A stretch of 64,000 bases of DNA from a virus (IMGVR_UViG_2935054407_000002:37578-101577); one strand, 5' to 3'. Shown: positions 32,508 through 64,000, counted from the first letter of the stretch. Numbers and translations: made by a program. The notes: generated from the letters alone by a model not told the origin.

Positions 32508-32511
32508 CGGC

Positions 32512-49200: not shown

Positions 49201-49440
49201 CGGCTCTCCGCCTCTCCAGAGGAGACAGACAGAGCAGCGGGCGGGGTGAGCTTTCCGGACTCCAGGAGCTGCGCAGCGCGGCCCATGGACGCGGCGAAGC
49301 GGACTCCCCCGAACCCCTCGTCCTTGCCAGCAGACACCTGGCTAACAGATGCGGACATGAGCTCCTCCGAGTAGGTGCGGAGCTCAGCTACGCAGCGGGC
49401 GCGCTCGTCGGCGCGGATCTGCTCGGGTGTCTCGGTGCTC
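49197..49440 (-). CDS. Hypothetical protein
   Basis: Start MSTETPEQIRADERARC... Confidence 0.4.
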
Positions 49441-49605
49441 ATGCTGTGGGCTCCTGCGGGTACGGGTAGGCGGGAGAGGTCGAAGCGGGGTCCGTGACCG
49501 GCGGCGGTGAGATGGGATGCATCACCGGGGCAGGGCGGGGACGGCGGCGACCGCGACGCCCCTTGTGCGGGGCGACCATGCGGCACACCAGCTCTAAAGC
49601 GCTCA

Positions 49606-50110: not shown

Positions 50111-50179
50111 GTTCGGGGTGGTTGGATTGGTGAGCGGTCCCGGATCTCCTCGGCTGAATCGAGGAGATCCGGGCCGCTT

Positions 50180-50449
50180 CTACGCAGAGGTGAGGACGTT
50201 CGCCGGGGCAAGCGGATCGGTCTCCGGTCTCAGGCCGTGCTCACGCATCACGTCGTAGGCGGTATCGACCATCGCCTCAGGGACCGCCTGCTTGATCTCG
50301 GCGAGGACCTCAGGGTGATCGGCGGGGTCGTAGCCCGCGCTCACGAGGAAGCCGGCCGCCTCGAACCGGAAGTGGCCGCCCAGCGTGCCGCAGGCAACGC
50401 CGCAGTGTCCGCGCTCGGCCAGAATCCACTTGGGGCCGCGGGGGCTCAC
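50180..50449 (-). CDS. Hypothetical protein
   Basis: 89 aa ORF. Confidence 0.4.
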   Translation of the reverse strand: MSPRGPKWILAERGHCGVACGTLGGHFRFEAAGFLVSAGYDPADHPEVLAEIKQAVPEAMVDTAYDVMREHGLRPETDPLAPANVLTSA

Positions 50450-50928
50450 TCGGCACCGCCAACCGGAGTGACGAGAGTGCCGTTAGACAGGTGGCGAACC
50501 TCCACCAAGCCGGGCATGTGAGGGTCCTCGAACATGACCCTGCGGTGGCCATCGAAGTGCTCACTGACGCTGATACCAGTGATGCGGACCTCCTGCCCGC
50601 CATTCAGCTCGGGGTGGCAGATCAGCGCGTTGACCGACATCTGGTCGACGCGGACGCCAGCGGGTTCGGGCTCTACCTGACCCGGCTCCGACGATGGCTC
50701 GGGCTCAGGTGCTCCGCCAGCGACCTCCTGCCACGCGATCAGGTCTTGGTCCGGCGGGGCGTCGCGGAACATGGCGGGGCTGCACACGGCGGTCGCAGCA
50801 GCCAGGGCGAGGGTCGCATGCACCTGAGCGGCGCCGAGGAAGTAGAGCCCCACGCTGGCGCCTTGGGGAGCGTCCTCAGCTTCTGTGAGCAGCCGCTCGG
50901 CCTCGCGGTAATGATCAGGACCGTTCAT
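50446..50928 (-). CDS. Hypothetical protein
   Basis: 160 aa ORF. Confidence 0.5.
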   Translation of the reverse strand: MNGPDHYREAERLLTEAEDAPQGASVGLYFLGAAQVHATLALAAATAVCSPAMFRDAPPDQDLIAWQEVAGGAPEPEPSSEPGQVEPEPAGVRVDQMSVNALICHPELNGGQEVRITGISVSEHFDGHRRVMFEDPHMPGLVEVRHLSNGTLVTPVGGAE

Positions 50929-50960
50929 GGGTGGTCTCCGTTCAGGTGGTCAGGGGGTGG

Positions 50961-51305
50961 TCAGGAAGCCATCTCGGACTGCTGGGTGGTCATGGCGCGC
51001 TCGTACCGCCATGCGGTCGTCGAAGAGATGCCGAGCCGCTTGGCGGCGTTCTCGGCGCTCTCACCACACGAGCGGAGGAACGCGTACTCCTCGGCCCGCT
51101 CGGCAGCGAGGCGGCTGTACGCCTCCCTGGCACGGTCAGCTCCCGCCCGGTATGCCGGAAGCGACTTCGCCTTATCGAGAGGGAAAGCGTCGAGGCGCCC
51201 GTTGTAGCGGTGACGCAGGTAACAGGCCCGGCGTAGACGGCGCGGCCATGCAGGACCCTCGACGCCGCAGCAGACACACACGATGCGCCGGCCGGAGTCG
51301 CTCAC
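50961..51305 (-). CDS. HTH DNA-binding protein with an N-terminal Cys cluster
   Basis: CVCCG. AENAAKRLGISSTTAWRYE. Confidence 0.5.
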   Translation of the reverse strand: MSDSGRRIVCVCCGVEGPAWPRRLRRACYLRHRYNGRLDAFPLDKAKSLPAYRAGADRAREAYSRLAAERAEEYAFLRSCGESAENAAKRLGISSTTAWRYERAMTTQQSEMAS

Positions 51306-51814
51306 TTCTCCTCCCCGGTGGGAGGAGAAGCCGAGGAGGAGGAGGAGGCGGACTTCGCGATGAGGTCAGCGGCGATCTCGTTGACCTTCTCCGGGGCGAC
51401 GCCGTACTCGTCGCGCAGCCACTCCCAGATCTCGCCGCCAAGACCGGACCCGGCGTCCCAGTCCTCCCACAGAGTTCGAGCGACCTCGTCCGCCTGATGC
51501 GAACCGGCGCGCTCCTCCAACTCCCGCAGCAGGAACGTGATGCCGTAGTAGGAGACGACGGTTTTCATCGACTCCATCGCCTCGTCACGGACGTGGTGAT
51601 CCATGGCGACGCGGAAGTGAAGCTGCGTGAACGCCGCGAAGTGCTTCGCCATCGCCTCCGCAGTGACGTCGTTCACGGATGTCGGGTACGGGGCGATGTC
51701 GTCCAGGGACAGCGGCTTGCCGGCCTGCTTGACTTCAGGGCACGTCTTCAGGTGGCCGAGGAACACCAGATTGCCGTCTTCCGGGCACGTGCATCGCGCG
51801 GTCTTGTGGGCCAT
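51302..51814 (-). CDS. Hypothetical protein
   Basis: Start MAHKTARCTCPEDG... Confidence 0.45.
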   Translation of the reverse strand: MAHKTARCTCPEDGNLVFLGHLKTCPEVKQAGKPLSLDDIAPYPTSVNDVTAEAMAKHFAAFTQLHFRVAMDHHVRDEAMESMKTVVSYYGITFLLRELEERAGSHQADEVARTLWEDWDAGSGLGGEIWEWLRDEYGVAPEKVNEIAADLIAKSASSSSSASPPTGEEK

Positions 51815-51827
51815 CGGGGGTCTCCAT

Positions 51828-52568
51828 TCAGGAGGAAGGGGGAAGCGGGGGCAGGAAGTCACCGCGAGGACCCCGACGGGCCTTCTGGCGCGCTTCCTCC
51901 TCAGTGAGGTCGGTGTGGAACATGTCGGCCGCCGTCGCCGGCGTGCCATCAGCGCGGTACGCGGGCAGGTCCTTGATGTCGTCGCCGAAGAACTTCTTCA
52001 TCCCGTGAGCGAAGAGGTCGCTCATGTTGGTCATGAACTCCTTTGACCACGGGCTGTCGGCGATGAAGGCCAGCAGCCGGTCATGGCTGATGAGCCAGTC
52101 GCCATAGAAGTCCCACTTCTTGCCGTTGGCGTCGGGCTCGGCGCCGGGGTAGTCGTCGGCGTGGTGGACGACGAACGACAGGTTCAGGTCGCAGTAGCCG
52201 CGAAGGCACTCCCAGCCCAGACGCCCGTCGCCGCGCTCCTCGTCCAGTCCCCGCTGGTCCTGGAGAGCGTGAAGCTGCTGCTTGTCAGCCCAGTCGCACG
52301 CCTCCCACACCGGAACGCCAAGCGCCTCGGCAACCTCGCTCAGGAGGAGGTAGCGGTCCTCGGTGCCTTCGAAGTGGACGGGCGCCGCCCCGAAACCGGC
52401 GAGGTCGATCATGTGGCCCGGCAGGGCGAGCGCGATCGGGGTGGTCTTGGAGAACTTCTCCAGCGCTTCCACAGCCTTAGCGATCTGCTCTTCGGGGCCG
52501 TAGTCGAGGAGGTGGTCGTCGTTGCGGGCGACGATGTCCGCCGCAAACTTCTCGAATACCGCCCTCAT
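51828..52568 (-). CDS. Hypothetical protein
   Basis: Start MRAVFEKFAADIVARN... ATGA overlap with the DinD-like gene. Confidence 0.5.
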   Translation of the reverse strand: MRAVFEKFAADIVARNDDHLLDYGPEEQIAKAVEALEKFSKTTPIALALPGHMIDLAGFGAAPVHFEGTEDRYLLLSEVAEALGVPVWEACDWADKQQLHALQDQRGLDEERGDGRLGWECLRGYCDLNLSFVVHHADDYPGAEPDANGKKWDFYGDWLISHDRLLAFIADSPWSKEFMTNMSDLFAHGMKKFFGDDIKDLPAYRADGTPATAADMFHTDLTEEEARQKARRGPRGDFLPPLPPSS

Positions 52569-53305
52569 GAGGCACCGCCTTCGATCGCGAACAGGTCGCC
52601 CTGTCGCGGGCTCCGGTCGAGCGACTGCCGAGCATCGGGAACGAAGACCTGGATCTTCCGCTTGGCCTCCCGGTAGTGGAACCACAGCGCCGGAACGCAA
52701 TGCCGGAACACCAGGTAGGCGGTGCCGGTCCACCAGAAGCAGTCAGCGAAGTCGGCCTTCGGCTCGAACTGCTGGTTCAGGACTCCGGCAGCCATGAGGG
52801 TGCGGCGCAGGTCCACCACGCCGACCCGGACCCGGTACTCCTGGCGGATGACCGTGCAGGTCTCCTTCCAGGTGTAGGCGTCTGGCTTGAACGGGTCGTC
52901 CTGAACTACGGGGGGCGGGGTGGCGCGTTCGGCTGCGCGGATCTCGGCCTCGCGGGTCTTGACCGCGAAGTAGGTCTGCGCTTCGGCGACGGCGGCCTTG
53001 CGCGGGTCGCAGTTCATCGCGACGAGGTAGGCGCCGTAGCGGGTCAGGTGGAAGTCGTCTACCTCGCGGCGGTGGCCTCGGCTGTTCTTAGTGATCTTGC
53101 GGGCGTCCGCAAAGTGATCTTGAACGTTCGCTCCGCTGTTCTCCGCAGCAGCCATGGCCCGGCCGATCGCGTCTTCGAACTGACGCCACTGCTCGTAGTC
53201 GAGCTTCGGCGACATCTCACGAGCAGACCAGTACTCGCCTCGCTCACCCACGTGCTTGATCGCGTCGAACGGCGAAGCGCCCCCCGAGGGCTGAATCTCG
53301 TTCAC
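52565..53305 (-). CDS. dinD: DinD-like DNA-damage-inducible protein (Bro-N-related)
   Basis: N-terminus MNEIQP...SPFDAIKHVGERGEYWSAREMSPKLDYEQWRQFEDAIGRA closely follows the E. coli DinD N-terminal pattern. Confidence 0.65.
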   Translation of the reverse strand: MNEIQPSGGASPFDAIKHVGERGEYWSAREMSPKLDYEQWRQFEDAIGRAMAAAENSGANVQDHFADARKITKNSRGHRREVDDFHLTRYGAYLVAMNCDPRKAAVAEAQTYFAVKTREAEIRAAERATPPPVVQDDPFKPDAYTWKETCTVIRQEYRVRVGVVDLRRTLMAAGVLNQQFEPKADFADCFWWTGTAYLVFRHCVPALWFHYREAKRKIQVFVPDARQSLDRSPRQGDLFAIEGGAS

Positions 53306-53514
53306 GCCGCCGACTCCTCGGCCACACCGATGCGGTTGCGCTTCAGGTAGGCGTTGATGGACTCCTCGGAGACCTTCACGTGCGAGTTGCGGGCGGTGCC
53401 CTTGATGGCTTCCAGTTCGCCTTCGCGGATCAGCTTGGCCAGCGTGGCGCGGCCGATGTCCAACCGTCCGCAGGCTTGCGCTGTGGACAGATACACGTCA
53501 CCAACTCCATTCAC
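53302..53514 (-). CDS. Excisionase/MerR-like HTH protein
   Basis: YLSTAQACGRLDIGRATLAKLIREGELEA. Confidence 0.55.
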   Translation of the reverse strand: MNGVGDVYLSTAQACGRLDIGRATLAKLIREGELEAIKGTARNSHVKVSEESINAYLKRNRIGVAEESAA

Positions 53515-53607
53515 TCTTGGCGTCTTTGAGCAAGTCTATGCAACTCTTGGCGCACTATGGAAGGGGAAACGCTCCACAAACTCTGAGCAGGTCTGTACAC
53601 ATGAGGG
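53515..53607. promoter_or_regulatory. Divergent promoter region with direct repeats ACTCTTGGCG x2
   Basis: Lies between the divergent HTH genes. Confidence 0.4.
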
Positions 53608-53952
53608 GTGAGTGATCAGCCCCCCGCCGCGCCCTTCCACGCCCTCGTCGTCAGCACCCTGAAACGACAGGGCAAGAACATGACGTGGCTTGGCCAGCGC
53701 AGCGGGGTCTCCCGTAACACCATCGGCAACTGGGCGAAGCAACCCCGCCCCCCACAGCCGGGGACCGTCCTGCAAGTTGCCGACGCGCTGGGCATTGAGC
53801 ACGACCGAGCACTCCAGCTCTCCGGGCTGACCGACGCCCCTCCGCCTCCTCTGGGCGAGGACTTGGCAGACCTGTCCACGGTCCCTACCGATGCGCTCGT
53901 GGATCAGCTCCGCCTCATCGGCGACGAGCTGCGCCGGCGTATCCCTGACTGA
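53608..53952 (+). CDS. XRE-family HTH regulator
   Basis: LKRQGKNMTWLGQRSGVSRNTIGNWAKQ. Confidence 0.6.
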   Translation: MSDQPPAAPFHALVVSTLKRQGKNMTWLGQRSGVSRNTIGNWAKQPRPPQPGTVLQVADALGIEHDRALQLSGLTDAPPPPLGEDLADLSTVPTDALVDQLRLIGDELRRRIPD

Positions 53953-54202
53953 CACGTCCCCTCCTCTCCTCGCGTGTGGTGGTTGGTTGGGTCTGCTGGC
54001 TCCCGTTCAGCAGAGAGACCCGGAAGGTCCCGTACGTCCCGCCCTCTCAAAGAGGGCGGGACCGACGGGTTAGGGGTGCGGCTGTGCTTGAGCGGGGTCG
54101 GGGCGATCGACGGCGAACAGGCCGTCGTCCTCATCGGGATCGACTCGCGGGTCCTCGGCGGGCTCTTCGGGCTTCAGGCACACGGGCAGATCAGCCACCG
54201 CG

Positions 54203-54343
54203 ATCAACCGCCCGTCACGTGGTTGACGAGCGCGATAACGGCCCAGATCACGACGCCGATCAACGCCAGCGACACCAGGGAAGAAGCGACGCAGACAGCG
54301 ATGAAGCAGCCAGCGCCCAGCTCTTCGGGCCCGCGCCTGGCCA
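54203..54343 (-). CDS. Small membrane peptide (46 aa)
   Basis: TGATG coupling to the lipoprotein gene. MARRGPEELGAGCFIAVCVASSLVSLALIGVVIWAVIALVNHVTGG. Confidence 0.4.
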
Positions 54344-55177
54344 TCAGTTGCCTGCCTTCGGCGGGACCGCGACGGAGTTGCCCTGCGGCAGAACGAACTG
54401 GACCCGGCCGTCACGGATCGCCTGCAGTTGGATGTAGCCCTGCCAGCCGAGGACGTCGACGAGTTCCTTGATGGACTGGATTTCGGTGCGGATCTGCTCG
54501 TTCTTGTTCTTCTGGGCGACGTTGCGCTCGATCGCCTCCTGAGCTGAGGCCAGCGCGTCACGCACGCCCTGAGGCGGCTGAGGCTGCTGCAGCGTTACGG
54601 AGAACCCGGTGAAGTAGCCTTCGCCGCCCTGCTCCTTCACGAACTGCGGGATCAGCTGACGGACCCGCTCTTCCCACGCCTGCTTGTCGACGCCCGTGTA
54701 CAGGCGCTTCCACTCGAACTCCTTCGACGCGGCGTCCAAGGCGCGGTCAAGGGGCTGGCGGACGTAGACGCCGAGGAGCTTCAACCAGCCGGCGTCCTCA
54801 TACGCCCGGAACTTCAGGCCGAGCTGCTCGTGGAAGCGCTGCAGCGTCTTGCAGTCCACCGTCAGCGTGAACGTCGCCACCCCCGGCACGGTGAGTTCGA
54901 TGTTGTCCTTGCTGACCACGGTCAACGGAGTCGTCTCCGCGTCCTTGGCGGTGGAGAACTCGTAGCTGCGCTGACCGGCCGGGTAGACGTAGCCGGTATC
55001 GAACGGCCCGGACACGTCCCTGACGCCGGGGTTGATGCACCCCTGGAACTTCGTGTTGGAGAACGGTCCGGCGTCGTAGGAGATGCCGACCTGGTCCGGC
55101 TCCGGCGTCGTGACTGAACAGCCCGTCAGGACGACCAGCGCGAGGCCAGCGGCGGGGATCAGGAGCTTGCGGTTCAA
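54344..55177 (-). CDS. Lipoprotein; full-length paralog of the host gene disrupted at the attachment site
   Basis: Signal peptide with lipobox LTGC. Aligns with host remnant 63671-64000 (CINP..., YP.GQR, PL(S/T)VVSK). Confidence 0.7.
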   Translation of the reverse strand: MNRKLLIPAAGLALVVLTGCSVTTPEPDQVGISYDAGPFSNTKFQGCINPGVRDVSGPFDTGYVYPAGQRSYEFSTAKDAETTPLTVVSKDNIELTVPGVATFTLTVDCKTLQRFHEQLGLKFRAYEDAGWLKLLGVYVRQPLDRALDAASKEFEWKRLYTGVDKQAWEERVRQLIPQFVKEQGGEGYFTGFSVTLQQPQPPQGVRDALASAQEAIERNVAQKNKNEQIRTEIQSIKELVDVLGWQGYIQLQAIRDGRVQFVLPQGNSVAVPPKAGN

Positions 55178-55437
55178 CGAACAGCCCTCTTTCGGGGGGT
55201 AGGCGGGTTGAGGTGGTTACGGATCTCGTCGGCCAGGACGTCGGCGTACTTCTCGACGTCGCGGGCGTCGATCGCCGCCTTGTGGAGGTGGTCGAGGAAC
55301 TCCTCGTGACGGCGGCGTTCACGCCGGTCCTCGCGGGCCCGGCGGGAGCGGGTCAGGATCGCGACGACCAGCACCACGGCCAGGGCGATCACCGCCACGG
55401 CTCCGAGGATGATCAGGGCTCTCATCAGTTCCTTCAC
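55174..55437 (-). CDS. Membrane-anchored small protein
   Basis: N-terminal transmembrane helix followed by a charged region. Confidence 0.5.
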   Translation of the reverse strand: MKELMRALIILGAVAVIALAVVLVVAILTRSRRAREDRRERRRHEEFLDHLHKAAIDARDVEKYADVLADEIRNHLNPPTPRKRAVR

Positions 55438-55503
55438 GTCGGGGGTCGGTCGGGGTGTCGGCTCTGAGCACCCCCGAAGGAGCCCAGAGCCGACACCGGG
55501 GTC

Positions 55504-55575
55504 AGAGGATGAGCAGCAGCACCATGAGCGCGATCAGCACCCACGTGAGGACCAAGGCCGGGTTGTCGTTCATGC
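55504..55575 (-). CDS. Tiny hydrophobic peptide (23 aa)
   Basis: MNDNPALVLTWVLIALMVLLLIL. Confidence 0.3.
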
Positions 55576-55709
55576 GGGGACCTCCAGGTCTGAAGGAGAC
55601 CCGCCGCACTTGAGGTCCGCGGCCTGTAGAGCAAGGCAGTGCTCGCAGCAGCCACACGGGGCGCCGGCCGCAGTCGGGCACTCGACGGCCTCGACGCCGG
55701 GAAGCTCGT

Positions 55710-56210
55710 TCACGGCGCCTCGATCCGCTGCCACTCGCCCGCCGAAGTCGGCAAGCACCAACCCAGCCACGCCACCAGCACCGGCACCAGCGCCGGGTCA
55801 GCGATCGAGTTACGGCCGATGATCCAGCCGTGCTTCTCGGCGTCCAGCTCCCACGGCCGCTCGGTCAGCAGGCCATGACACCCGCTTGTCCCGTCGCCGC
55901 ACGCAACGACGAGGTTCGTGACGTCGTTGATCCGCGGGTCCGACGACCCGCCCATGCCGCGGTTGCGGCGGTGGTGGATAGACCGGACCCGGTCGGTGAC
56001 GATGACCCCGCACACAACACAGGTCTCCTGGTCACGAAGCATCACGGCCTTGCGGACCGCAGCCGACGGCCCGGTGCCCGCCGGCCGCTTTGGCTTCTTC
56101 GCCGCGGCTCGCTTGAGACCGCTCCCGCCCGCCTGCAGCCCCTTACCGCGGTTCATGAGCGTCTTCGCCGTCAGCGGCGTCTTCCGCTGCAGCGGCTTGC
56201 CGGCCTTCAC
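55710..56210 (-). CDS. HNH endonuclease
   Basis: GTG start overlaps the upstream stop. CVVCG...HHRRNRGMGGS...NLVVACGDGTSGCHG. Confidence 0.7.
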   Translation of the reverse strand: MKAGKPLQRKTPLTAKTLMNRGKGLQAGGSGLKRAAAKKPKRPAGTGPSAAVRKAVMLRDQETCVVCGVIVTDRVRSIHHRRNRGMGGSSDPRINDVTNLVVACGDGTSGCHGLLTERPWELDAEKHGWIIGRNSIADPALVPVLVAWLGWCLPTSAGEWQRIEAP

Positions 56211-56572
56211 AGCTGGCCTCCGGCGAGCTGCATCTCCGCGCGGGCGGTGGACTGGATTGTGCGACCAACGTCGATGCGGGCGTGGAGAGCCCGCAGGTGC
56301 TCCTTCTGGAGCCGAACCGCTGCGGCGGCCTTGCCGTGGATGCGCCATAGGTGATCGGTCTGAGTGATCGCGATCTGCTTGCGGTCTTCGATCGACCCCT
56401 CAGCGGCGCGAAACGCTCCGGCGAACGCCACCTTGAAGTCGCCCTCAGCCTCGACCGCGATGAACTCCAGGTCGGCCATCTTCGTGACGGCGTCATCAAG
56501 GTCGCGGGAGAGCTGGCCAAGCTGCTTGATGATCGTGAGCATCTCCGTCACGCCGAACCGCCCTTGACCCAC
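56207..56572 (-). CDS. Hypothetical protein
   Basis: 121 aa ORF coupled to its neighbours. Confidence 0.45.
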   Translation of the reverse strand: MGQGRFGVTEMLTIIKQLGQLSRDLDDAVTKMADLEFIAVEAEGDFKVAFAGAFRAAEGSIEDRKQIAITQTDHLWRIHGKAAAAVRLQKEHLRALHARIDVGRTIQSTARAEMQLAGGQL

Positions 56573-57495
56573 GGGTCCTCAGGCAGAGGGCCGCGCTCGG
56601 CGATTTGCGGGTTGGAAGTGACGTCCTTGACGAGCTTGTTGTGGGCGCTCTTCTCCGAACCGGTCATCGTGCCGACCTCGGCGAGCTGCTCGTCGGTCAC
56701 CTGACGGCGGGCGATCGTGCCGTCCTGGTTCCGCGGCAGCCCATCCGCCGGCCCGTTCAGGATCTTCTGTCGCTCCTGCACCAACGTCATGAGCCGGTTC
56801 GCGGTCTCGCTGTTGATGCGCCGGGTCTGCATCGCCTCGGTCACGTCCCGGCGGAAGCCGGCCACGGTGTCAAGGCTGCTCTCGGCCAGGCGCTTCTCGA
56901 ATACGTCGACCCAGTCGGTGTCCACGACGATCTGCGCCTGCGCCGCCTGATGCTTCGGCGCCGCACGCTGCCCAGGATCAGCAACCGGGTTCTCCGCCGC
57001 AGGGTTGTCCCGGTCGCCCTTCTGCCACTGCGCCAGCGCCACACCGAACCGCTGGGCGGCGTTCCTCAGAGCGTCACCGATGAGGACCTTGACCGCGTCG
57101 TGTTGGTTCGAGGGCACCGAGCCGTAGCCGGGCCGGGTGACGCCGCACACGGTGAGGCGGATCCACATGCCGACCGGGTTGCCGTACTTGTCGGTGTCCA
57201 GTGCCGGCAGGCCGGTCTCGTCCAGCGCGAACGGCTCCCACGACCAGTACGGATCTACCTTCAGCAGCCGCGCGGTCACGTCTGCGTGGCCGACGTAGTC
57301 GATGTGGATGTGCTTGGTGGAGACGTACGCCTTGCAGATCTCGCACTTCTGCTTGACGTGCCCTGCCTTGGTGCAGTTCTTGTTCTTGTCGGAGCAGTCG
57401 GAACACGTGACCCTCGGCAGTAGGCCGATCTGGTCCGCGTTGAACGGCTCCATCAGCTTGAGCAGGGATTCCCGCTCAAGGTCGGTCGTGGTCAC
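56548..57495 (-). CDS. Rad52/Sak-like single-strand annealing protein (putative)
   Basis: N-terminal Cys pairs and YVGHADVTARLLKVDPYWSWE...GNPVGMWIRLTVCGVTRPGYG resemble phage Rad52-family recombinases. Confidence 0.5.
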   Translation of the reverse strand: MTTTDLERESLLKLMEPFNADQIGLLPRVTCSDCSDKNKNCTKAGHVKQKCEICKAYVSTKHIHIDYVGHADVTARLLKVDPYWSWEPFALDETGLPALDTDKYGNPVGMWIRLTVCGVTRPGYGSVPSNQHDAVKVLIGDALRNAAQRFGVALAQWQKGDRDNPAAENPVADPGQRAAPKHQAAQAQIVVDTDWVDVFEKRLAESSLDTVAGFRRDVTEAMQTRRINSETANRLMTLVQERQKILNGPADGLPRNQDGTIARRQVTDEQLAEVGTMTGSEKSAHNKLVKDVTSNPQIAERGPLPEDPWVKGGSA

Positions 57496-57652
57496 TGCTC
57501 GTCGTCTCCTCGGTCATCGTCGTGGCGGTCGTCGGCCCACTCCAGGAGCCGCTCGTAGCGCTCCACGGGGTCCGTGATCGGGTCAGGTGCCGCGAGTATC
57601 CGCAGCTCACCGCAGTCGAGGTAGGCGCTGACCGCGTCCTGATAGCGGGTCA
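57492..57652 (-). CDS. Small acidic protein (53 aa)
   Basis: GTGA overlaps at both ends. Confidence 0.3.
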
Positions 57653-57880
57653 CGGCTCCCCCTCGCCGGCGTCGTGCTCGGCCAGGACGTCACCCTTGGG
57701 GGTGGCCAGCTCCGAGGACGCGAGGCGCTTGAGCAGCTCGCACTGGCCGCACATCTCGTAGTGGTCGTGAGCCCGAACAGCGCTCCACCGGGCCCGCCGA
57801 CCGCACAGAGAGCGGCCTTCCCGGGTGGGGTCCTTGATGTGGCGGGACGCGCCGGCTTCGGTGACGCACCGGTCACTCAT
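57650..57880 (-). CDS. Small Cys-containing protein (76 aa)
   Basis: MSDRCVTEAG...LCGRRARW...MCGQCELL. ATGA coupling. Confidence 0.4.
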   Translation of the reverse strand: MSDRCVTEAGASRHIKDPTREGRSLCGRRARWSAVRAHDHYEMCGQCELLKRLASSELATPKGDVLAEHDAGEGEP

Positions 57881-58293
57881 GCGGCCTCCTGGTGGAGGCG
57901 GCGAACGAGGCGGTTGTGACCCACCAGGACGTCCATGGCGTGAGCTCGAACCGCGACGTCCTGCCAACGGATGTACAGGCCGTCCCGCCCGACTGGGGTG
58001 GCGTGCAGTACCCGCACTGGGCGGCCGTCGTTCCACGCCCTGCAGGCAACGATGTCCCGGCAATGGAGGTAGCGGGCGAAGGTCGTCTCGCGAAGGAACG
58101 CCTGCACGTCATCGGCGAGGAAGAGGTAACGTCCCGCGCCGGTCACAGCAGAAGCGGTGATCAGGCCGAGCTTCTGCCAGCCCGTCACCCGCCGCGTCTG
58201 AACGCCCAGCAGGGCAGCGACGTCGCTGGACGGCAGGTGCGCCGCTCCCTGCGGCCAGGTGACCGTGTTAGGAAGAACGGTGAGGATGCTCAT
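57877..58293 (-). CDS. HTH protein (MerR/excisionase-like)
   Basis: SSDVAALLGVQTRRVTGWQKLGLI. Confidence 0.5.
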   Translation of the reverse strand: MSILTVLPNTVTWPQGAAHLPSSDVAALLGVQTRRVTGWQKLGLITASAVTGAGRYLFLADDVQAFLRETTFARYLHCRDIVACRAWNDGRPVRVLHATPVGRDGLYIRWQDVAVRAHAMDVLVGHNRLVRRLHQEAA

Positions 58294-58592
58294 TTGCCCT
58301 CACCGCCGACGTAGCGGGCGTACACCCGGCACTCACCGTCCACCGTGCGAGCGACCGCTTTGAACTGGCCAAGGGGGTAGAGCGCCTTGATGCGCCCCGT
58401 CTTGATCCGGTGCGCGGTCTGGGCTGCGACAGCTCGGTCCTGCTCGACCTGGACGATCGCCCACTTGTCCGGGTTCGCGCGCAGCTTTCCAGCGATCGTG
58501 GGCCAGTCCAGTGCGGGCGGGCGCGGTCCCGTACGGCGAAGCGCGGGCGGGTCCTCCCAGCGGAGCTCTGGGGCAGCGGTAAGGACGCTCAT
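58290..58592 (-). CDS. Hypothetical protein
   Basis: 100 aa ORF. Confidence 0.45.
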   Translation of the reverse strand: MSVLTAAPELRWEDPPALRRTGPRPPALDWPTIAGKLRANPDKWAIVQVEQDRAVAAQTAHRIKTGRIKALYPLGQFKAVARTVDGECRVYARYVGGEGK

Positions 58593-58985
58593 GCGCTCTC
58601 ACCGCCCTGCGGGGAGACGTCGGCCAGGTTCCGGACGGCCTGAGCCGCGCTCTCGGCGTCCCGGCCGACCACTAGGGCAACCAGCCCGCCGTCTCGCTCC
58701 AAACGAGCCACCGTCAACCCGGTCGCCGTTAGTGCTCTCTCGCACGGGGCGAGACGCTGGGCGTTCATGTGCCGCCAGCCGCCCGCGCCGCGCAGGATTC
58801 CGTTCCGGACGTCCTTCACGAGCACGTGGACCGTTTCGGCCGTCTCTCCGTAAGGGTGGTAGACGTCGAACCCGTCGCCTGTGCGGTGGTAGGACTCCAG
58901 ACCAGCGTCGAGAAGGGTGTCCCACACAGTGGTGCCCAGGTCGGCGATAGCGTCGACGACCTCGCTCGGCATCATCACCTCAGAC
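58589..58985 (-). CDS. Hypothetical protein
   Basis: Start MSEVMMPSEVVDAIADLG... Confidence 0.45.
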
Positions 58986-59399
58986 ATGGGCCACCTCGAT
59001 CTGCTCAGGAAGGGAGAGGGCGCCCTCGACGCGGACGCTTGTAGCGGTCCACCGGGACTCGCGGTAGTAGGTGATCGCCTCGTACTGCACGTAGACGACG
59101 GAGGCCGAGCGCAGTGCTTTCGCGGCCTCGTGCCAAGCGGCCCGGTCAAGGCGGTGACGCCCGTTCCGGATTCCAGTCAGGGACCCGATCCAGCCGACGT
59201 TCCAACCCCACCCGATCGCGGAGTTGTCGCCCGGGACGACCACGTACCAGGAGACGTCAGGCAGCTCAGGCGCGTACTCCTGCGTCCCGCTCGGGTGATG
59301 CACGCGGGCCAGCGACCCTTTCGGGAGGTGGATCACAGCCACCTCAACCGCGCTGGGGCGGGCCTCGATGATCGTTCCGGCTACAGCCAGGGTCCTCAT
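58980..59399 (-). CDS. Hypothetical protein
   Basis: Start MRTLAVAGTIIEARP... ATGA coupling. Confidence 0.45.
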   Translation of the reverse strand: MRTLAVAGTIIEARPSAVEVAVIHLPKGSLARVHHPSGTQEYAPELPDVSWYVVVPGDNSAIGWGWNVGWIGSLTGIRNGRHRLDRAAWHEAAKALRSASVVYVQYEAITYYRESRWTATSVRVEGALSLPEQIEVAHV

Positions 59400-59689
59400 G
59401 CGATCACCTCGGCAGCGGCTCGCAGGTAGGCGGCGGCCTCGTCTCGTCCGCAGCGGGGCGTCCACCGCAGCAACCAGCCGGTGTCGACGCCCTCGGCGCG
59501 CAGGTAGGTGACGAGGAGGTCCCAGGCGGCCTGCGCCACATCAGAGGCTGGCGCTACCTCACGCAGCGCCACACACAGGTCCACCTGCCCCACACGGGTG
59601 TGAGGGAGGGCCGCGATCCGGTCCGCGACGGCGACCAGCACGACGCCAGCGGGGGTCAGAGTGGGCCGTTCGACGGCGGGGGCGGTCAC
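59396..59689 (-). CDS. Hypothetical protein
   Basis: 97 aa ORF. Confidence 0.45.
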   Translation of the reverse strand: MTAPAVERPTLTPAGVVLVAVADRIAALPHTRVGQVDLCVALREVAPASDVAQAAWDLLVTYLRAEGVDTGWLLRWTPRCGRDEAAAYLRAAAEVIA

Positions 59690-59967
59690 AGAGCACCCGC
59701 CACGGTCGCGCCATACGCGGCCAGCCGCTCCACACCCAGCCGGTCCGCGACCGCCTTGATCACGTCATGCAGATGCAGATCCGTCTCCCGGAACGCCTCC
59801 GGCTCCTCACCATCGAACCCGTACGCCGACACCATGTACCGACCCGACGGGCTCGTCTTCGGAGACTGAATCGTCACGGTGAACCCGTGATGATGCAGCG
59901 CTTCCAGGTAGTAGCGGGTCGACCTGTCACTGACAACGGCCGGCGCTTCCTGGGCGATACTGGTCAT
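59686..59967 (-). CDS. Hypothetical protein
   Basis: 93 aa ORF. Confidence 0.45.
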   Translation of the reverse strand: MTSIAQEAPAVVSDRSTRYYLEALHHHGFTVTIQSPKTSPSGRYMVSAYGFDGEEPEAFRETDLHLHDVIKAVADRLGVERLAAYGATVAGAL

Positions 59968-60058
59968 GAGTTCCTGCTCCTCTAGTTGATCTCTGTGTGA
60001 TCTCTGAGCGGGGATTCAGCGGGTCCCGGTCGGTCGCACGGCCGGGCCCGCACAAGGT

Positions 60059-60208
60059 CAGGCGACGAGGACGTACTCAGTTGGCTCGTCAGCAAGGTCC
60101 GCCGCAGCGCACAGCGAGAGCTGTCGCATGAAGCCGGCGGAGGCGTAGGACTCGGCATCCAGCAGATGCCGGCCCGGGACCAGGACGACGGGTTCGTTCG
60201 ACTGGCTC
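60059..60208 (-). CDS. Small hypothetical protein (49 aa)
   Basis: GTG overlaps the stop of the upstream gene. Confidence 0.25.
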
Positions 60209-60410
60209 ACGCCGCGTTCTCCTCAGCGGCTCGGTGGTCTGCGGCCTGCTGTTCAACGACCCGTCGCATCGCAGGCGAGAGGATGCGAGCCATGAACGCG
60301 AGAGCCTCCGGGCTCGGGTCGGGCCACTTCGCGACGATCGCTTGTATGTGCGGCTCCTGGGATTTGGCGAGGAGCATCGCGGCGCGTGTGGGGTAGTCGT
60401 CGGCGGCCAT
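60207..60410 (-). CDS. Hypothetical protein
   Basis: 67 aa ORF. Confidence 0.4.
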   Translation of the reverse strand: MAADDYPTRAAMLLAKSQEPHIQAIVAKWPDPSPEALAFMARILSPAMRRVVEQQAADHRAAEENAA

Positions 60411-60679
60411 CAGGGGGCGGTCCGCTCGGTGTCGGGTACGACCTCGAAGAGGTCCTCGAACTTGAGGCCCGGCAGGTGCCAGATGGCGGCAGCGACGAAC
60501 TTGGGGCCAGGCTCGACCTCGTTGTTCCTGGCGCGACTGATGATGGAGGTGCTGAGGCCGAGGAGTTCAGCGCAGGCCGCGTCGCTTGAAAGACCGCGGG
60601 CGCGGGTGTGACGCACCCATTCGGTCGTCCTCAACCGCAGTCGCAGGGGGGGCCGTTGTGCCCATTCTGTTGTGCGCAT
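60410..60679 (-). CDS. Cro-like XRE HTH regulator (first gene of the early leftward operon)
   Basis: GLSSDAACAELLGLSTSIISRARNNEVEPGPKFVAAAIW. The start abuts the operator cluster. Confidence 0.6.
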   Translation of the reverse strand: MRTTEWAQRPPLRLRLRTTEWVRHTRARGLSSDAACAELLGLSTSIISRARNNEVEPGPKFVAAAIWHLPGLKFEDLFEVVPDTERTAP

Positions 60680-60680
60680 A

Positions 60681-60877
60681 CATGCACAGTAGACCTTGTG
60701 TGTGCATGCGTGCAACCAAATGACGAGGAAGTTTAAGCAGCTAGGGCCGCCCGGGGCGAAAATTGGACCGCGCCAGACCTCATCTGACGCACGCATGCAC
60801 AGTAAGAATTTCAGTCAACGCCTGCCCACCTGCATGGATGTCTGATCCATCGAGTGCTACTGTGCATGCGTGCGCAC
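60681..60877. promoter_or_regulatory. Immunity-switch operators between the divergent cro-like and cI-like genes
   Basis: Copies of (T)GTGCATGCGTGC / GCATGCACAGTA at 60681-60714, 60787-60804 and 60858-60877, the last inverted. Confidence 0.6.
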
Positions 60878-61379
60878 ACCAAAGTGGGATCGGGAGCGCT
60901 TCGGTGAACTTCTCAAAGAGATCGGCGACCGTGCACACCTAGATCAAGGTGGCCTCGCTGAACTCGCAGGCCGAAGCCGCTCACAGATCAACCGATGGAC
61001 TCGGTCAGAAAACCAGCCGGCCTACGATGCGGTCGCTCGCTTAGCGACTGCGATCACTGGTCGATATCCGCATCTCGCAGACCTCGCCCGCGAGTTCATG
61101 ATCGCCGCTGGGTACCAAGACGGCCCGCCGGCCCAGGATGCGACGACCTCTTCCGGCAACGCAGCTTCCGACCTAGTGGCTCAACTACGAGCTCAAGCTG
61201 CAGCGCAAGGCAAAACTCTCCGGGAAGTTCTAGAGGATGGCGGCGCCCACCCCGACGAACTAGATCCTGAGGCTCAGGCGCGGCTAGATCGACTCAACGA
61301 GATCTTCCAGATGGGCATGCAAGAAATCGTGGAAGCAACTCGGCGAGGACGGATGACCGGGGAAGCAGAGGCGTCGTGA
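60870..61379 (+). CDS. cI-like repressor candidate (XRE HTH N-terminus plus C-terminal domain)
   Basis: GELLKEIGDRAHLDQGGLAELAGRSRSQINRWTRSENQP. Divergent from the cro-like gene. Start may be a downstream ATG. Confidence 0.6.
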   Translation: MRTPKWDRERFGELLKEIGDRAHLDQGGLAELAGRSRSQINRWTRSENQPAYDAVARLATAITGRYPHLADLAREFMIAAGYQDGPPAQDATTSSGNAASDLVAQLRAQAAAQGKTLREVLEDGGAHPDELDPEAQARLDRLNEIFQMGMQEIVEATRRGRMTGEAEAS

Positions 61380-61412
61380 ACCCCCCGATACTCACGACGT
61401 CCCCGCCTTCTC

Positions 61413-61880
61413 TTACCTGACGACCCGGATGGGTTGCGTGCTGTTCCCGTCCCGTGCCGCGTTCAGGTATCCCTGAACCACGGCCAGCCCCGCCCCTACG
61501 GCAGCTCGTTCAGCGACTCGTTCGGCGTTCACAACCTTGTCTCCGAGTGCGCTGACGTGTGCTTCTGTTGCCTGCTTGATCGTCTCGCGGTGCTGTAGGC
61601 CGTTAGCTTCGACTACCGCCGCATGCCGCTTGATCGCCTCCTCGATGCGGGCGGCGTAACGATCGATGACGGCGGACAGCCATGTTTTGAGATTGCAGCT
61701 CACGTCGTAGAGGGCCAGGACTAGGGCTGCGCCCACCAGTCCGATGGTCAGCTTCGTCGGAGCGATGTTTACGGCTATCTCAATCGCAGCGATGACGTAC
61801 GCCGTACGGGCAAGGTACGTCAGGGTCCGGTGCTGAGAATCCATGCGCAGGTGAACCATGATCCTGCCTTTCGACCACAC
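61413..61880 (-). CDS. Membrane protein
   Basis: Several hydrophobic helices. Confidence 0.5.
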   Translation of the reverse strand: MWSKGRIMVHLRMDSQHRTLTYLARTAYVIAAIEIAVNIAPTKLTIGLVGAALVLALYDVSCNLKTWLSAVIDRYAARIEEAIKRHAAVVEANGLQHRETIKQATEAHVSALGDKVVNAERVAERAAVGAGLAVVQGYLNAARDGNSTQPIRVVR

Positions 61881-62149
61881 ACGCAGATGCGGCCTACGCG
61901 AGCTTGCTGTCTCCCACGGCGAGCGCGATAAGACGTCACTCTAGGACGGGGGCAGGGGTTAAGGGAACACCAAAATGCGTGCGTATTTTCGACTTGTAAA
62001 AACGTTTACGGCTCTTCTGGTCGATGGTCACCCACGGTGATTGAAATATCAATGACTCGTACCGTAATGGGCCAAACGCGTAGTTCGCGGAACGCTCTAA
62101 GGTAAGCCTGTTATCACCCTTGAGACAGCCTGGTCACCAGGTCAATCTC

Positions 62150-63643
62150 TCAAGCATGGGAGCGAACCACCACGTCAACTGACTCCTCGTCCGGAATATT
62201 CTTCCGCCCCGGCCCGACCGGCATGATCGCGATCTTCTCAAACAGCCACACCAGCAACTCCCGTTTCTGAGGCAACTCCAGTGCATCCCACGCAGCAGGA
62301 ACAGCTTCCGGGCTGACCATAACGAGACTCGCAACATGCGCAGGGAAATGAATTCTTTTCATTTTCTGCTCAGCCGCTTCGATCTCCGCCGTCAAAACAC
62401 CCTCTACGCGAGCCAAGCCCGTAGCCGACAACTTCCCCTGAGCGGCCTGCACATAGAACTCCTCCAGCCGCGCACGCTTCTCCTCCACCTCCGCAAGCAC
62501 ACCCCCCACCTCATCACCCACGTCGCCCGTCACCGCTAGAGCCGCCAAGGTCGGCCTCGACATCAAAAGCGCTACAGCCAGCGACTCCACATACGTATCC
62601 ACCCGCTCCTTGTGCCGGCCCACATGGAACGACTTCTCCTTGACGGGGTACTTCCGCACGCACGAGTAGTAGTTGATGCCCCGCCTAAGCCGCGGCCGGC
62701 ACGGAGACCCGCAGACCCCACAGACCGCGATACCGCTGAGAAGGTGCCGGATCGCAGACGGGCGGGCTCCACCACGGGCCGGATCGGTGAGTTTCGCCAC
62801 GATCAGGTAGTAGGTGTGGTCGTCGAGGATGCGCGGGAACCACTGCTCAGTACTTTTGATTTTCACGCCGAGATGAACCCGGTACCCCACGTAGGAGGGG
62901 TTGATCACCAGCCGTTTGATCGGGGTCGACGTCCACTTCGCGCCGCGTGGTGACGGGGTCCCGCGGTCGTTGAGGATCCGCGCGATCGTGTTCAGCGGGG
63001 TCCCCTGCTTGATCATGTCCGCGATGTCGCGAATCACCGCAGCCTCGTCCTGGTCGATGTCCTGCCCGACCAGATCCCCAGTGTCCGGGTCATACCGCCG
63101 GCGGTAGCCGTACAGGCGGCGGCCGTGCGGAGCCCCTGCCGCAGCACGGGATCTCGTGGTGCGGCGAAGCCGTCCGCTGAGGCGCTCGGACTCGAACGCC
63201 GAATCAACGCCGTCATCAGCCAGGACCTTCCAGTCGCGGGCCCGCTGCATGTTGTACGTCCGGTCATGCGATGTCACATGAATCAGGACGCCCTGCTCAC
63301 GGCACGTCTGCAGCAGGCTCATCCACTCGACGGGCTTGCGGTCGCCGCGGGAGCTCTCCCACAGGACGAGGACGTCGAAGGTGCCGGCTTCGAGCTGGGC
63401 GAGGAGGCGGTCCCATTCGGGGCGGCCCTTGCGGGCGAAGCGTGAGGCGGAACGGTCCAGTTCTGCGAAGACCTCTTTGATGTGCCAGCCGTTCTCGCGG
63501 CAGGCGTCGGTGTTCGCGGTGTTCTGCTCTGGAACGGATCTTGTTTCAGCTGATCTCTGACCAGCCTTGATCTTGCTGACGCGGCCGTAGATCGCGGCCT
63601 GTAGGGCGTCGTCCGGGGCGGGGCGGCGAGAGGCGGGGGGCAT
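62150..63643 (-). CDS. Large serine recombinase (integrase)
   Basis: Resolvase-type N-terminus with AAIYGRVS (catalytic Ser). Recombinase domain and Cys-rich zinc ribbon (CGVCGSPC...YYSC). Confidence 0.85.
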   Translation of the reverse strand: MPPASRRPAPDDALQAAIYGRVSKIKAGQRSAETRSVPEQNTANTDACRENGWHIKEVFAELDRSASRFARKGRPEWDRLLAQLEAGTFDVLVLWESSRGDRKPVEWMSLLQTCREQGVLIHVTSHDRTYNMQRARDWKVLADDGVDSAFESERLSGRLRRTTRSRAAAGAPHGRRLYGYRRRYDPDTGDLVGQDIDQDEAAVIRDIADMIKQGTPLNTIARILNDRGTPSPRGAKWTSTPIKRLVINPSYVGYRVHLGVKIKSTEQWFPRILDDHTYYLIVAKLTDPARGGARPSAIRHLLSGIAVCGVCGSPCRPRLRRGINYYSCVRKYPVKEKSFHVGRHKERVDTYVESLAVALLMSRPTLAALAVTGDVGDEVGGVLAEVEEKRARLEEFYVQAAQGKLSATGLARVEGVLTAEIEAAEQKMKRIHFPAHVASLVMVSPEAVPAAWDALELPQKRELLVWLFEKIAIMPVGPGRKNIPDEESVDVVVRSHA

Positions 63644-63700
63644 GCACTCACGGTAGAACGAAAGCAGTGCCTAAGCGACTGTTTCCTTGGAGACCACGGA
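63644..63700. other. Prophage/host junction (attR-type site of the serine integrase)
   Basis: Homology between the host lipoprotein gene and the phage paralog breaks at ...GTGGTC(TCC/AGC)AAGGA. The host ORF ends ...VVSKETVA* at 63671. Confidence 0.45.
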
Positions 63701-64000
63701 CAGCGGCTTGGACTCGGCGTCGTCGGCCCCGGAGAAGTCGAAGGTCCGCTGGCCGAACGGGTAGGAGAAGCCCCGGTCGCCGGGGCCGAGCAGCGTGGCG
63801 CCGCTGGAGGGGTTGATGCACTTCTCGAACTTGATGGCCTCGAACGTGCCGCCGGCGTAGTGCAGGACGACCTCGTCGGGCTGGGTGCTCACCCGGGAGC
63901 ACGAGCTGAGGAGGAACGCGGAGATCACCAGCAGGACGACCACGAGGATCGACCCCTTCAGCAGCGGCCTCCGGTTGCCCGCGGCCTTCTGAGCACTCAT
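63671..64000 (-). pseudogene. Host lipoprotein gene truncated at its 3' end by prophage insertion
   Basis: N-terminal signal peptide and lipobox (LLSSC). 109 aa instead of about 277. Ends where the phage paralog continues. Confidence 0.55.

What the first reader, a model, noticed from the sequence alone, without database searches (positions are those of the whole stretch)
54344..64000. Prophage carries a full-length paralog of the lipoprotein gene its serine integrase disrupted
The host gene at the window edge (63671-64000) is cut to 109 aa: signal peptide, lipobox, then ...PLSVVSKETVA*. Phage gene 54344-55177 encodes a 277-aa lipoprotein that aligns through CINP, YP.GQR and PL(S/T)VVSK and then continues for about 170 aa. 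Nucleotide homology between the two stops exactly at the junction next to the integrase N-terminus. Either the phage supplies a substitute for the function it destroys, or this phage integrates into the homologous gene of a resident related prophage (a prophage-in-prophage target). Both options bear on attB specificity.
Basis: seen in the sequence. Interest (0 to 1): 0.7.

Follow-up and report, generated by a model that had tools for sequence, protein, structure and literature searches.

The report
Prophage splits host SPFH lipoprotein gene
A roughly 100-kb prophage in a Streptosporangium genome was inserted by its serine integrase into a conserved membrane-scaffold (SPFH) lipoprotein gene, and the phage also carries a distant relative of that gene; this relative is a common phage accessory gene, not a purpose-built replacement, so the case is a new but ordinary integration site.

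Summary
The 109-aa ORF at the window edge is the 5' part of a 309-aa SPFH/Band-7 lipoprotein gene. This gene is intact and syntenic in 40 Streptosporangiaceae species. Its 3' part (207 aa) lies about 100.6 kb away on the same contig, and the two parts rejoin in frame. The junctions share AAGGA. The rebuilt attP is a symmetric serine-integrase site, TGCCTAA-N12-AA-N12-TTAGGCA. Host genes lie to the right of the window, so the prophage-in-prophage option is refuted.

Related elements occupy the same site in S. album (integrase 55% identical) and in one Logan assembly contig.

The phage's 277-aa protein is a true paralog of the host protein (52% aa identity). It belongs to a separate phage/prophage clade (bootstrap 96%). 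It always follows a small membrane protein gene in the early region.

The same cassette occurs in prophages that integrate elsewhere, with the host gene left intact, and in Rhodococcus, Corynebacterium and Mycobacterium phages. No copy was found in the S. album prophage. One strain has naturally deleted part of the host gene.

The idea of a dedicated substitute is therefore weakened, though not excluded. This is a new integrase/attB pair of a known kind.

The parts
63689..64000 (-). Host-derived 5' part of the SPFH/Band-7 lipoprotein gene (codons 1-104, with the Lys-105 codon running into the core). The annotated ORF is 63671-64000 (109 aa, ACIBCT_20660).
   Evidence: 97% aa identity to residues 1-108 of the intact 309-aa S. 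longisporum gene. Identical to P0001.
63684..63688 (-). Common core AAGGA (TCCTT on the + strand), shared by attB, attP and both junctions. The likely crossover dinucleotide AA is at 63687-63688.
   Evidence: Comparison of the window junction, the distal junction L045:~10003 and the empty site L005:10313-10317. The shared bases at the S. album junctions leave AA, TC or GA as candidate crossover dinucleotides, and attP symmetry centres on AA.
63644..63683 (-). Phage-derived attP arm next to the integrase gene. It reads GGAAACAGTCGC then TTAGGCA (TGCCTAA on the + strand at 63668-63674). It supplies codons E-T-V-A-stop to the truncated host ORF.
   Evidence: It mirrors TGCCTAA-CGAGCAATGTCG at the distal junction (L045).
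62150..63643 (-). Large serine recombinase (497 aa), the integrase of the element.
   Evidence: Pfam Resolvase, Recombinase and Zn_ribbon_recom. 55% identical to the integrase at the same site in S. album. At most 35% identical to integrases of sequenced phages.
60870..61379 (+). HTH_31 regulator on the opposite strand to the early genes; a repressor-like candidate immunity gene.
   Evidence: the gene layout.
55174..55437 (-). Small single-pass membrane protein (87 aa), the first gene of the conserved cassette.
   Evidence: Homologues sit directly upstream of the SPFH paralog in L049, L050, L051, L052 and L054. A membrane protein occupies the same position in phage PSonyx.
54344..55177 (-). 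Phage SPFH/Band-7 lipoprotein (277 aa), a paralog of the split host gene.
   Evidence: Pfam Band_7. PHROG 200 'lipoprotein', E 2.7e-23. 51.6% aa and 65.9% nt identity to the rejoined host gene. Member of a separate clade, bootstrap 192/200.
54889..54924 (-). attB-like stretch inside the phage paralog (codons for VVSKDNIEL): TGACCGTGGTCAGC-AA-GGACAACATCGAACTCACCG. It is 28/36 identical to the host attB.
   Evidence: Identity here (0.71-0.81 per 42 nt) is not the gene's maximum, which is 0.90 elsewhere.
54204..54344 (-). 46-aa hydrophobic ORF that overlaps the stop of the SPFH gene; the last gene of the cassette.
   Evidence: it is also a called gene.
55454..55497 (-). Strong hairpin just upstream of the cassette.
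   Evidence: -38.2 kcal/mol, z -4.1.
54029..54069 (-). Strong hairpin just downstream of the cassette, between it and the convergent HTH gene 53608-53952 (+).
   Evidence: -36.4 kcal/mol, z -4.9.
1..63683 (-). Prophage DNA filling the rest of the window: early genes, replication genes and many accessory genes, then terminase 5591-7273, portal 4163-5575 and capsid 1641-2615. The element continues for about 37 kb beyond the window's left edge.
   Evidence: PHROG and Pfam hits. The distal junction is 100.6 kb from this one.

Best explanation
Shown by sequence: a roughly 100.6-kb integrated element lies in Streptosporangium sp. NPDC050855. It carries siphovirus-type head and tail genes and many accessory genes. 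Its large serine recombinase inserted it into the Lys-105 codon (VVS-K-DNVEM) of a monocistronic, chromosomally conserved 309-aa SPFH/Band-7 lipoprotein gene. Recombination occurred between attB (GTGGTCTCC-AA-GGACAACGTCGAG) and a symmetric attP (TGCCTAA-N12-AA-N12-TTAGGCA). That attP lies between a GntR gene and the integrase gene in the circular form of the element. The result is a 109-aa N-terminal ORF at the window edge and a 207-aa C-terminal ORF 100 kb away. Precise excision would restore the gene. Inferred: the phage's 277-aa SPFH lipoprotein is not a copy of the target and is not mechanistically tied to this integration site. It is the second gene of an old actinophage early-region cassette (small membrane protein plus SPFH lipoprotein), bracketed here by two strong hairpins. 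Related phages carry this cassette whatever integrase and attB they use. I think the most likely account is that a phage lineage which already owned this cassette acquired an integrase module whose target happens to be the host member of the same protein family. Any functional overlap between the two proteins would then be incidental. The similarity 'stops at the junction' simply because the host gene is cut there.
For: Empty site and target. 40 species genomes carry the uninterrupted gene, aligned end to end with the phage protein at 44-52% identity. Both host flanks are collinear with S. longisporum at 96-97% nt identity and meet at AAGGA. The distal fragment P0124 is on the same contig. The rejoined ORF is 930 nt and in frame. 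The attP dyad was rebuilt. Other lysogens. The same site is occupied in S. album by an element whose integrase is 55% identical and whose GntR gene and attP half-site are conserved. It is also occupied on a contig assembled from run SRR29331117. Independence of the paralog from this attB. The paralog clade is separate from the host clade, with bootstrap 192/200 against 197/200. The cassette lies 8 kb from a tyrosine integrase in an S. jomthongense prophage, and that strain's host gene is intact. The cassette is in a Nonomuraea sp. NPDC050556 prophage, again with the host gene intact. It is in four IMG/VR viral contigs, always behind the small membrane protein gene. Homologues occur in Rhodococcus phage E3 gp172, Corynebacterium phage PSonyx gp94 and 115 mycobacteriophage records. 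No IMG/VR contig has a related integrase.
Against: It is not very likely a priori that a phage's target gene belongs to a family the phage itself encodes at 52% identity. A functional link therefore cannot be dismissed. Both proteins are lipoproteins with the same domain. The hairpins around the cassette would allow moron-like expression that is independent of the early operon. The apparent absence of a paralog in the S. album prophage rests on database searches and on 20 kb of sequence. About 51 kb of that prophage were not read. About 18.5 kb of the present element (between L003 and L045) were also not read. No expression or phenotype data exist.
Confidence: 0.68

Rival explanations
1. Functional compensation. 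The phage-borne SPFH lipoprotein is expressed from the prophage and takes over the role of the host SPFH lipoprotein that integration destroys. This attB would then be tolerable only for phages that carry the cassette.
For: The two proteins share a domain family and a lipoprotein architecture, with 51.6% identity over the full length. The cassette is bracketed by strong hairpins and so could be its own transcription unit. A match between the target family and a phage gene family is unlikely by chance.
Against: The cassette is present in prophages that leave the host gene intact and use other integrases. It is also present in phages of other genera. No phage-type copy from S. album was found among 126 database relatives or among the members of the 10 clusters checked. 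Strain NPDC002607 has a natural deletion of about 515 bp covering the 5' part of the host gene, which suggests the gene is dispensable. The phage protein lacks two host-specific insertions (309 aa against 277 aa). The gene lies in the same orientation as the early lytic genes, and no promoter-like site was detected.
Confidence: 0.2
2. Prophage-in-prophage. The split gene belongs to an older resident prophage, and the phage targets the paralog carried by related phages.
For: Phage-type paralogs do contain an attB-like stretch, 28/36 identical in this phage.
Against: Both flanks of the split gene are ordinary chromosomal genes, collinear with 40 prophage-free genomes. The split gene falls inside the host clade. 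The two truncated phage-type copies that were examined are not att events: one was cut by an IS3-family insertion and the other (P0091/L049) still aligns from residue 21 with no integrase nearby.
Confidence: 0.01
3. Pseudo-attB or decoy. The attB-like sequence inside the phage paralog is used by the integrase, either as a secondary site for super-infecting relatives or as a site the phage must keep diverged to avoid cutting its own genome in two.
For: The stretch is 28/36 identical to attB, with an identical AA-GGACAAC core half. It is in direct orientation with respect to attP, 8.7 kb away.
Against: Identity in this stretch is only about one standard deviation above the gene average and is not the maximum. 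The similarity is explained by conservation of the VVSKDN(V/I/L)E motif across the whole family. The Ser codon difference (AGC against TCC) also occurs among functional host genes. No rearrangement or insertion at such a site was seen.
Confidence: 0.05
4. Regulatory switch ('active lysogeny'). The element excises at a defined stage, such as sporangium development, to restore the SPFH gene, as SP-beta does for spsM or skin does for sigK.
For: Excision would restore a perfect 309-aa ORF. Serine integrases with a recombination directionality factor act in this way in known cases (general knowledge).
Against: There is no evidence for regulated excision. The element carries a complete set of phage morphogenesis genes, so it looks like a normal inducible prophage. 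The gene is naturally deleted in one strain.
Confidence: 0.04

Closest known systems
Intragenic attB sites of actinophage large serine integrases (phiC31 in SCO3798, phiBT1 in SCO4848, TG1, SV1, phiJoe/phiOZJ/phiWTR and Samy in radical-SAM genes, Bxb1 in groEL1)
   Same: All have a large serine recombinase next to attP, a roughly 40-50-bp imperfectly symmetric attP, and a short common core. Each integrates inside a conserved protein-coding gene and inactivates it, usually with no obvious cost (PMC12924846; the remainder is general knowledge).
   Different: The integrase is at most 35% identical to any integrase in the phage collection. The target is a new gene, an SPFH lipoprotein of Streptosporangiaceae. 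The phage also encodes a member of the target's own protein family, which I do not know to have been described for those systems.
Actinophage 'band-7-like membrane protein' or lipoprotein family (PHROG 200; Rhodococcus phage E3 gp172, Corynebacterium phage PSonyx gp94, cluster L mycobacteriophages such as LeBron gp49)
   Same: The phage protein shows 40% identity over 93-99% of its length to E3 gp172 and PSonyx gp94. It has the same early-region position, downstream of recombination genes, with a small membrane protein gene directly upstream in PSonyx.
   Different: The function of the family is unknown. LeBron gp49 is listed as 'no known function', with mild toxicity on overexpression (PMC13148394). 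None of those phages is reported to integrate into a host SPFH gene.
Phages that rebuild the gene they integrate into (for example phage 21 and e14 at icd, and tRNA-targeting integrases)
   Same: In both cases the phage carries sequence homologous to its target gene (general knowledge).
   Different: In those phages the homologous piece lies at attP and directly replaces the displaced gene end, so the gene stays intact. Here the paralog is a complete, separately located gene 8.7 kb from attP, and the host gene is truly split.
Bacterial SPFH proteins (HflK/HflC, QmcA, YqiK, stomatin/NfeD pairs, flotillins)
   Same: It has a Band_7 domain and a membrane anchor, and it is paired with a small membrane protein gene.
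   Different: It is anchored by a lipobox rather than a transmembrane helix. The partner protein gave no NfeD hit. There is no sequence-detectable relative in the PDB.

Membership tests
Large serine recombinase (phage serine integrase) integration system | Integrase with an N-terminal resolvase catalytic domain, a recombinase domain and a zinc-ribbon domain | tested here: met
   Pfam PF00239 (E 2.9e-18), PF07508 (E 2.8e-13) and PF13408 (E 1.5e-5) on the 497-aa protein.
Large serine recombinase (phage serine integrase) integration system | The element is bounded by two junctions that recombine back to an uninterrupted attB and an attP, sharing only a short core | tested here: met
   The junctions share AAGGA. 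The empty site in S. longisporum equals the two flanks joined, and the rejoined ORF is in frame.
Large serine recombinase (phage serine integrase) integration system | attP is an imperfect inverted repeat centred on the crossover dinucleotide and lies adjacent to int | tested here: met
   TGCCTAA-N12-AA-N12-TTAGGCA, ending 24 bp from the int start codon. The half-site is conserved in three elements.
Large serine recombinase (phage serine integrase) integration system | Catalytic activity on the predicted attP x attB pair, and the identity of the crossover dinucleotide | not testable with these tools
   This needs a recombination assay. From sequence alone, AA is favoured by symmetry, but TC (2-3 bp to the left) or GA (2-3 bp to the right) cannot be excluded.
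SPFH / Band 7 family | Band_7 domain above the Pfam gathering score | tested here: met
   Phage protein 50 bits and host orthologue 29 bits, against a cut-off of 23.6.
Bacterial lipoprotein | Signal peptide followed by a lipobox Cys | tested here: met
   Read from the sequence: phage ...LVVLTGC-S and host ...LLSSC-S. The Cys is invariant in 13 phage-type sequences. No dedicated predictor was run.
Gene-restoring ('compensating') integration | The phage sequence restores an intact copy of the target gene, or its function | tested here: not met
   The target ORF is split into 109-aa and 207-aa pieces and is not rebuilt. Functional replacement by the paralog could not be tested, and comparative data argue against an obligate link.
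Anti-phage defence systems (PADLOC) | Match to a known defence protein model | tested here: not met
   No PADLOC hit for the phage or the host SPFH protein.

The most novel reading that the evidence does not exclude
On lysogeny the phage deliberately swaps the host's SPFH membrane-scaffold lipoprotein for its own version. Integration knocks out the host gene, and the hairpin-bracketed phage cassette (small membrane protein plus SPFH lipoprotein) is expressed in its place. The swap would either keep the cell viable or change envelope properties, for instance to exclude super-infecting phages. The choice of attB and the carriage of the paralog would then be co-selected.
Probability: 0.12. Interest if true: 0.6.

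Novelty: new member of a known kind. Interest (0 to 1): 0.3.

Why it matters
This defines a previously undescribed serine integrase, attP and attB set. The 40-bp target is conserved across Streptosporangium, Planobispora, Planomonospora, Nonomuraea and related genera. In 35 of 40 species the central AA is kept. These rare actinomycetes are rich in natural products and have few genetic tools, so the pair is a plausible starting point for an integrating vector. Biologically, it is a clean example of a prophage splitting a conserved, non-essential envelope gene. The paralog coincidence offers a cheap test of whether phages compensate for the genes they disrupt, but present evidence points to coincidence.

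Tried and rejected
1. I looked for the missing 3' part of the host gene inside the window by tblastn and found none. It lies beyond the left edge.
2. No sequenced phage resembles the region at the DNA level.
3. The 278-aa gene in the S. album prophage is not an SPFH protein.
4. A scan of IMG/VR for relatives of the integrase found none.
5. The two shortened phage-type copies I examined turned out not to be att events. P0197 (98 aa) was cut by an IS3-family transposase insertion. P0091 (183 aa) is a start or frame problem: the coding sequence continues upstream, and there is no integrase nearby.
6. I considered that the AGC Ser codon next to the core distinguishes the phage copy from attB. I rejected this because several host orthologues also use AGC.
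7. I considered that the attB-like stretch is unusually conserved at the DNA level. I rejected this too.
9. The sigma-70 promoter and T-tract terminator scans around the cassette found nothing. Only hairpins without T-tracts were seen.
10. No PADLOC match and no PDB sequence match for the SPFH protein.
Full report
**What is at the coordinates**

The last ORF of the window, 63671-64000 on the minus strand, encodes 109 aa. It has a signal peptide, a lipobox (LLSSC) and the C-terminal sequence ...PLSVVSKETVA*. A 497-aa large serine recombinase gene (62150-63643, minus strand) starts 27 bp downstream. It carries the Resolvase, Recombinase and Zn_ribbon_recom domains.

The gene at 54344-55177 (minus strand) encodes a 277-aa lipoprotein (LVVLTGC) with a Band_7/SPFH domain (E 4.7e-13). 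It matches PHROG 200, 'lipoprotein'. The two proteins align at 41% identity over 100 residues (E 1e-23), up to VVSK. The DNA alignment loses register directly after CAAGGA.

**Where the window comes from, and what lies to the right**

An exact look-up of the integrase places the window, reversed, on contig JBITFY010000010.1 (315 kb) of Streptosporangium sp. NPDC050855. To the right of the window lie ordinary chromosomal genes: an ECF sigma factor, a response regulator and histidine kinase pair, and CheB/CheR. No second prophage follows.

**The intact gene and the empty site**

A scan of one genome per species found 40 Streptosporangiaceae genomes with a relative of the 109-aa fragment. The genera are Streptosporangium, Planobispora, Planomonospora, Spongiactinospora, Thermocatellispora, Nonomuraea and Thermoactinospora.
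- In all 40 the reading frame runs on to a stop about 930 nt from the start of the match, consistent with a protein of 296-309 aa where the match begins at the start codon. It aligns with the phage protein over its whole length at 44-52% identity.
- In S. longisporum the first 108 residues are 97% identical to the fragment.
- Both flanks of the split gene are collinear with that genome at 96-97% nucleotide identity, and they abut at one point.

**The other half of the gene**

A search with the C-terminal two-thirds of the S. longisporum protein, followed by a cluster look-up, found P0124. This is a 207-aa protein of strain NPDC050855 (locus tag ACIBCT_21460; the N-terminal fragment is ACIBCT_20660). 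It lies on the same contig and the same strand, about 100.6 kb from the N-terminal fragment. It is followed by host genes for IclR, glycolate-oxidase-like proteins, malate synthase and HflX. Joining the two fragments at the shared core gives a 930-nt, 309-codon ORF.

**The att sites**

The three sequences read as follows:
- attB (S. longisporum): GTGGTCTCC-AAGGA-CAACGTCGAG
- window junction: GTGGTCTCC-AAGGA-AACAGTCGCTTAGGCAC
- distal junction: GCCTAACGAGCAATGTCG-AAGGA-CAACGTCGAG

The rebuilt attP is TGCCTAA-CGAGCAATGTCG-AA-GGAAACAGTCGC-TTAGGCA. This is a 7-bp inverted repeat placed symmetrically 12 bp on either side of AA.

In window coordinates the core is 63684-63688 and the AA is 63687-63688. 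Symmetry makes AA the likely crossover dinucleotide. From sequence alone, TC or GA two to three bases away cannot be excluded.

The site lies in the codons for VVSKDNVEM, the most conserved stretch of the N-terminal half. Of the 40 orthologues, 35 keep AA at this position, four have CG and one has AG.

The gene is flanked by genes on the opposite strand, so polar effects are unlikely.

**Other occupied sites**

- In S. album the orthologue is likewise cut to 108 aa and is followed by a serine integrase 55% identical to this one. Its 206-aa C-terminal remnant lies 71 kb away. The shared bases at those junctions leave AA, TC or GA as candidate crossover dinucleotides.
- A contig assembled from sequencing run SRR29331117 shows a third occupied site.
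- In all three elements a GntR-family gene and the half-site CCTAAC(G/A)A(G/T)CAATGTC(G/T)AA precede the remnant. The GntR gene and this arm therefore belong to the integrating element.

**The element**

Inside the window all large genes are phage-like and form one set:
- an immunity-type HTH regulator;
- a single-strand annealing protein, a replication initiator and a DnaB-type helicase;
- WhiB-like regulators, anti-repressors and HNH nucleases;
- terminase, portal and an HK97-type capsid protein.

Tail genes, including a 1341-aa tape measure protein, follow beyond the left edge. About 18.5 kb between that stretch and the distal 10 kb could not be read.

**Is the phage copy a substitute for the target?**

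Five observations bear on this.

1. Phylogeny. The phage copy groups with other 273-302-aa proteins from prophages and viral contigs, in a clade separate from the host orthologues. In a neighbour-joining tree with 200 bootstrap replicates, the phage-type clade has support 192 and the host clade 197. It is an old paralog, 51.6% identical in protein and 65.9% in DNA. It is not a captured copy of the target.

2. Context. In five of the six loci examined it follows a homologue of the 87-aa membrane protein encoded at 55174-55437. In Corynebacterium phage PSonyx a small membrane protein gene also precedes the band-7-like gene, downstream of RecT and SSB genes. It is therefore a conserved early-region cassette. 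In the window the cassette is bracketed by two strong hairpins.

3. Independence from this attB.
   - In S. jomthongense the cassette lies 8 kb from a tyrosine integrase that abuts host genes, and the host SPFH gene of that strain is intact.
   - Nonomuraea sp. NPDC050556 has the cassette in a prophage, again with an intact host gene.
   - Homologues occur in Rhodococcus phage E3, Corynebacterium phage PSonyx and 115 mycobacteriophage records.
   - LeBron gp49, a member of the family, has no known function (PMC13148394).

4. The converse case. No phage-type copy from S. album appeared among 126 database relatives or in the ten multi-member clusters inspected. None lies in the 20 kb of that prophage that were read. 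This is suggestive only, because 51 kb were not seen.

5. Dispensability. Strain NPDC002607 has no insertion but has lost about 515 bp covering the 5' part of the host gene.

**The attB-like stretch in the paralog**

Because VVSKDN is conserved in both clades, the phage gene contains a 36-bp stretch that is 28/36 identical to attB. Its identity is about one standard deviation above the gene average and is not the maximum. The Ser-codon difference also occurs among host genes. The two truncated phage-type copies that were examined were not cut at this site. I see no evidence that this stretch is used.

**Conclusion**

The structural reading is secure: serine-integrase integration into a conserved host SPFH lipoprotein gene, with defined attB, attP and junctions. 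The prophage-in-prophage option is refuted.

The substitute idea remains possible, at about 0.2, but comparative data favour coincidence. A phage lineage that already owned the SPFH cassette appears to have acquired an integrase module whose target is the host member of the same family.

In kind this is the familiar actinophage pattern of intragenic serine-integrase attB sites (PMC12924846). What is new is the integrase (at most 35% identical to known phage integrases) and the target.

Noticed in passing
L045:9990-10010; L046:9990-10010; L056:1945-1960: In all three lysogens the phage attP arm supplies an in-frame ATG-TCN directly before the crossover. The 3' two-thirds of the host gene therefore survives as an annotated ORF (MSKDN..., 206-207 aa) without a signal peptide, downstream of a co-oriented GntR gene. 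This may be incidental to half-site similarity (attB GTC-TCC-AA against attP ATG-TCG-AA).
   Followed up: partly
L045:1-9700 and L046:1-9750 (distal 10 kb of the elements, outside the window): The end of the insertion opposite the integrase is transcribed against the phage genes and is not typical phage DNA. In NPDC050855 it holds a DUF2637 protein, a PemK/MazF toxin with a SocA_Panacea partner, an HTH_31/DUF5753 plus DUF397 pair, and GntR. In S. album it looks like a complete actinomycete integrative conjugative element (tyrosine integrase, FtsK-like translocase, TraA-like protein, GntR/UTRA regulator). This suggests a composite or nested element. No tRNA gene was found.
   Followed up: partly
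L055:9878-10495: Streptosporangium sp. NPDC002607 has a natural deletion of about 515 bp that removes the promoter-proximal 145 codons of the same SPFH gene, with no mobile element present.
   Followed up: yes
window 562-1572, and L003:11044-13670: Two GT4-family glycosyltransferase genes lie directly after the major capsid gene. A UDP-glucose dehydrogenase-like gene is at 15221-16492. Together these may form a virion glycosylation module.
   Followed up: no
window 31316-32485: A 389-aa protein matches tRNA-His guanylyltransferase (Thg1-like; PHROG 4717, E 2.8e-74). The window and the flanking loci contain no tRNA genes.
   Followed up: no
window 9865-10689 and 46762-47832: An ADP-ribosyltransferase exoenzyme-toxin-like gene lies next to the packaging genes, and a PAPS-reductase-like gene lies in the replication region.
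   Followed up: no
window 17435-20653: A 1072-aa ORF in the accessory region has only a weak match to a PHROG of unknown function. Local GC content rises to 0.72 here.
   Followed up: no
P0162: A phage-type 277-aa SPFH protein is annotated on a 123-kb plasmid of Streptosporangium sandarakinum. This could be a phage-plasmid or a plasmid-borne prophage.
   Followed up: no
L060:5099-6851: In a metagenomic contig a phage-type SPFH gene is cut to its last 98 codons by an IS3-family transposase, next to a small resolvase gene. It looks like a decaying prophage remnant.
   Followed up: yes
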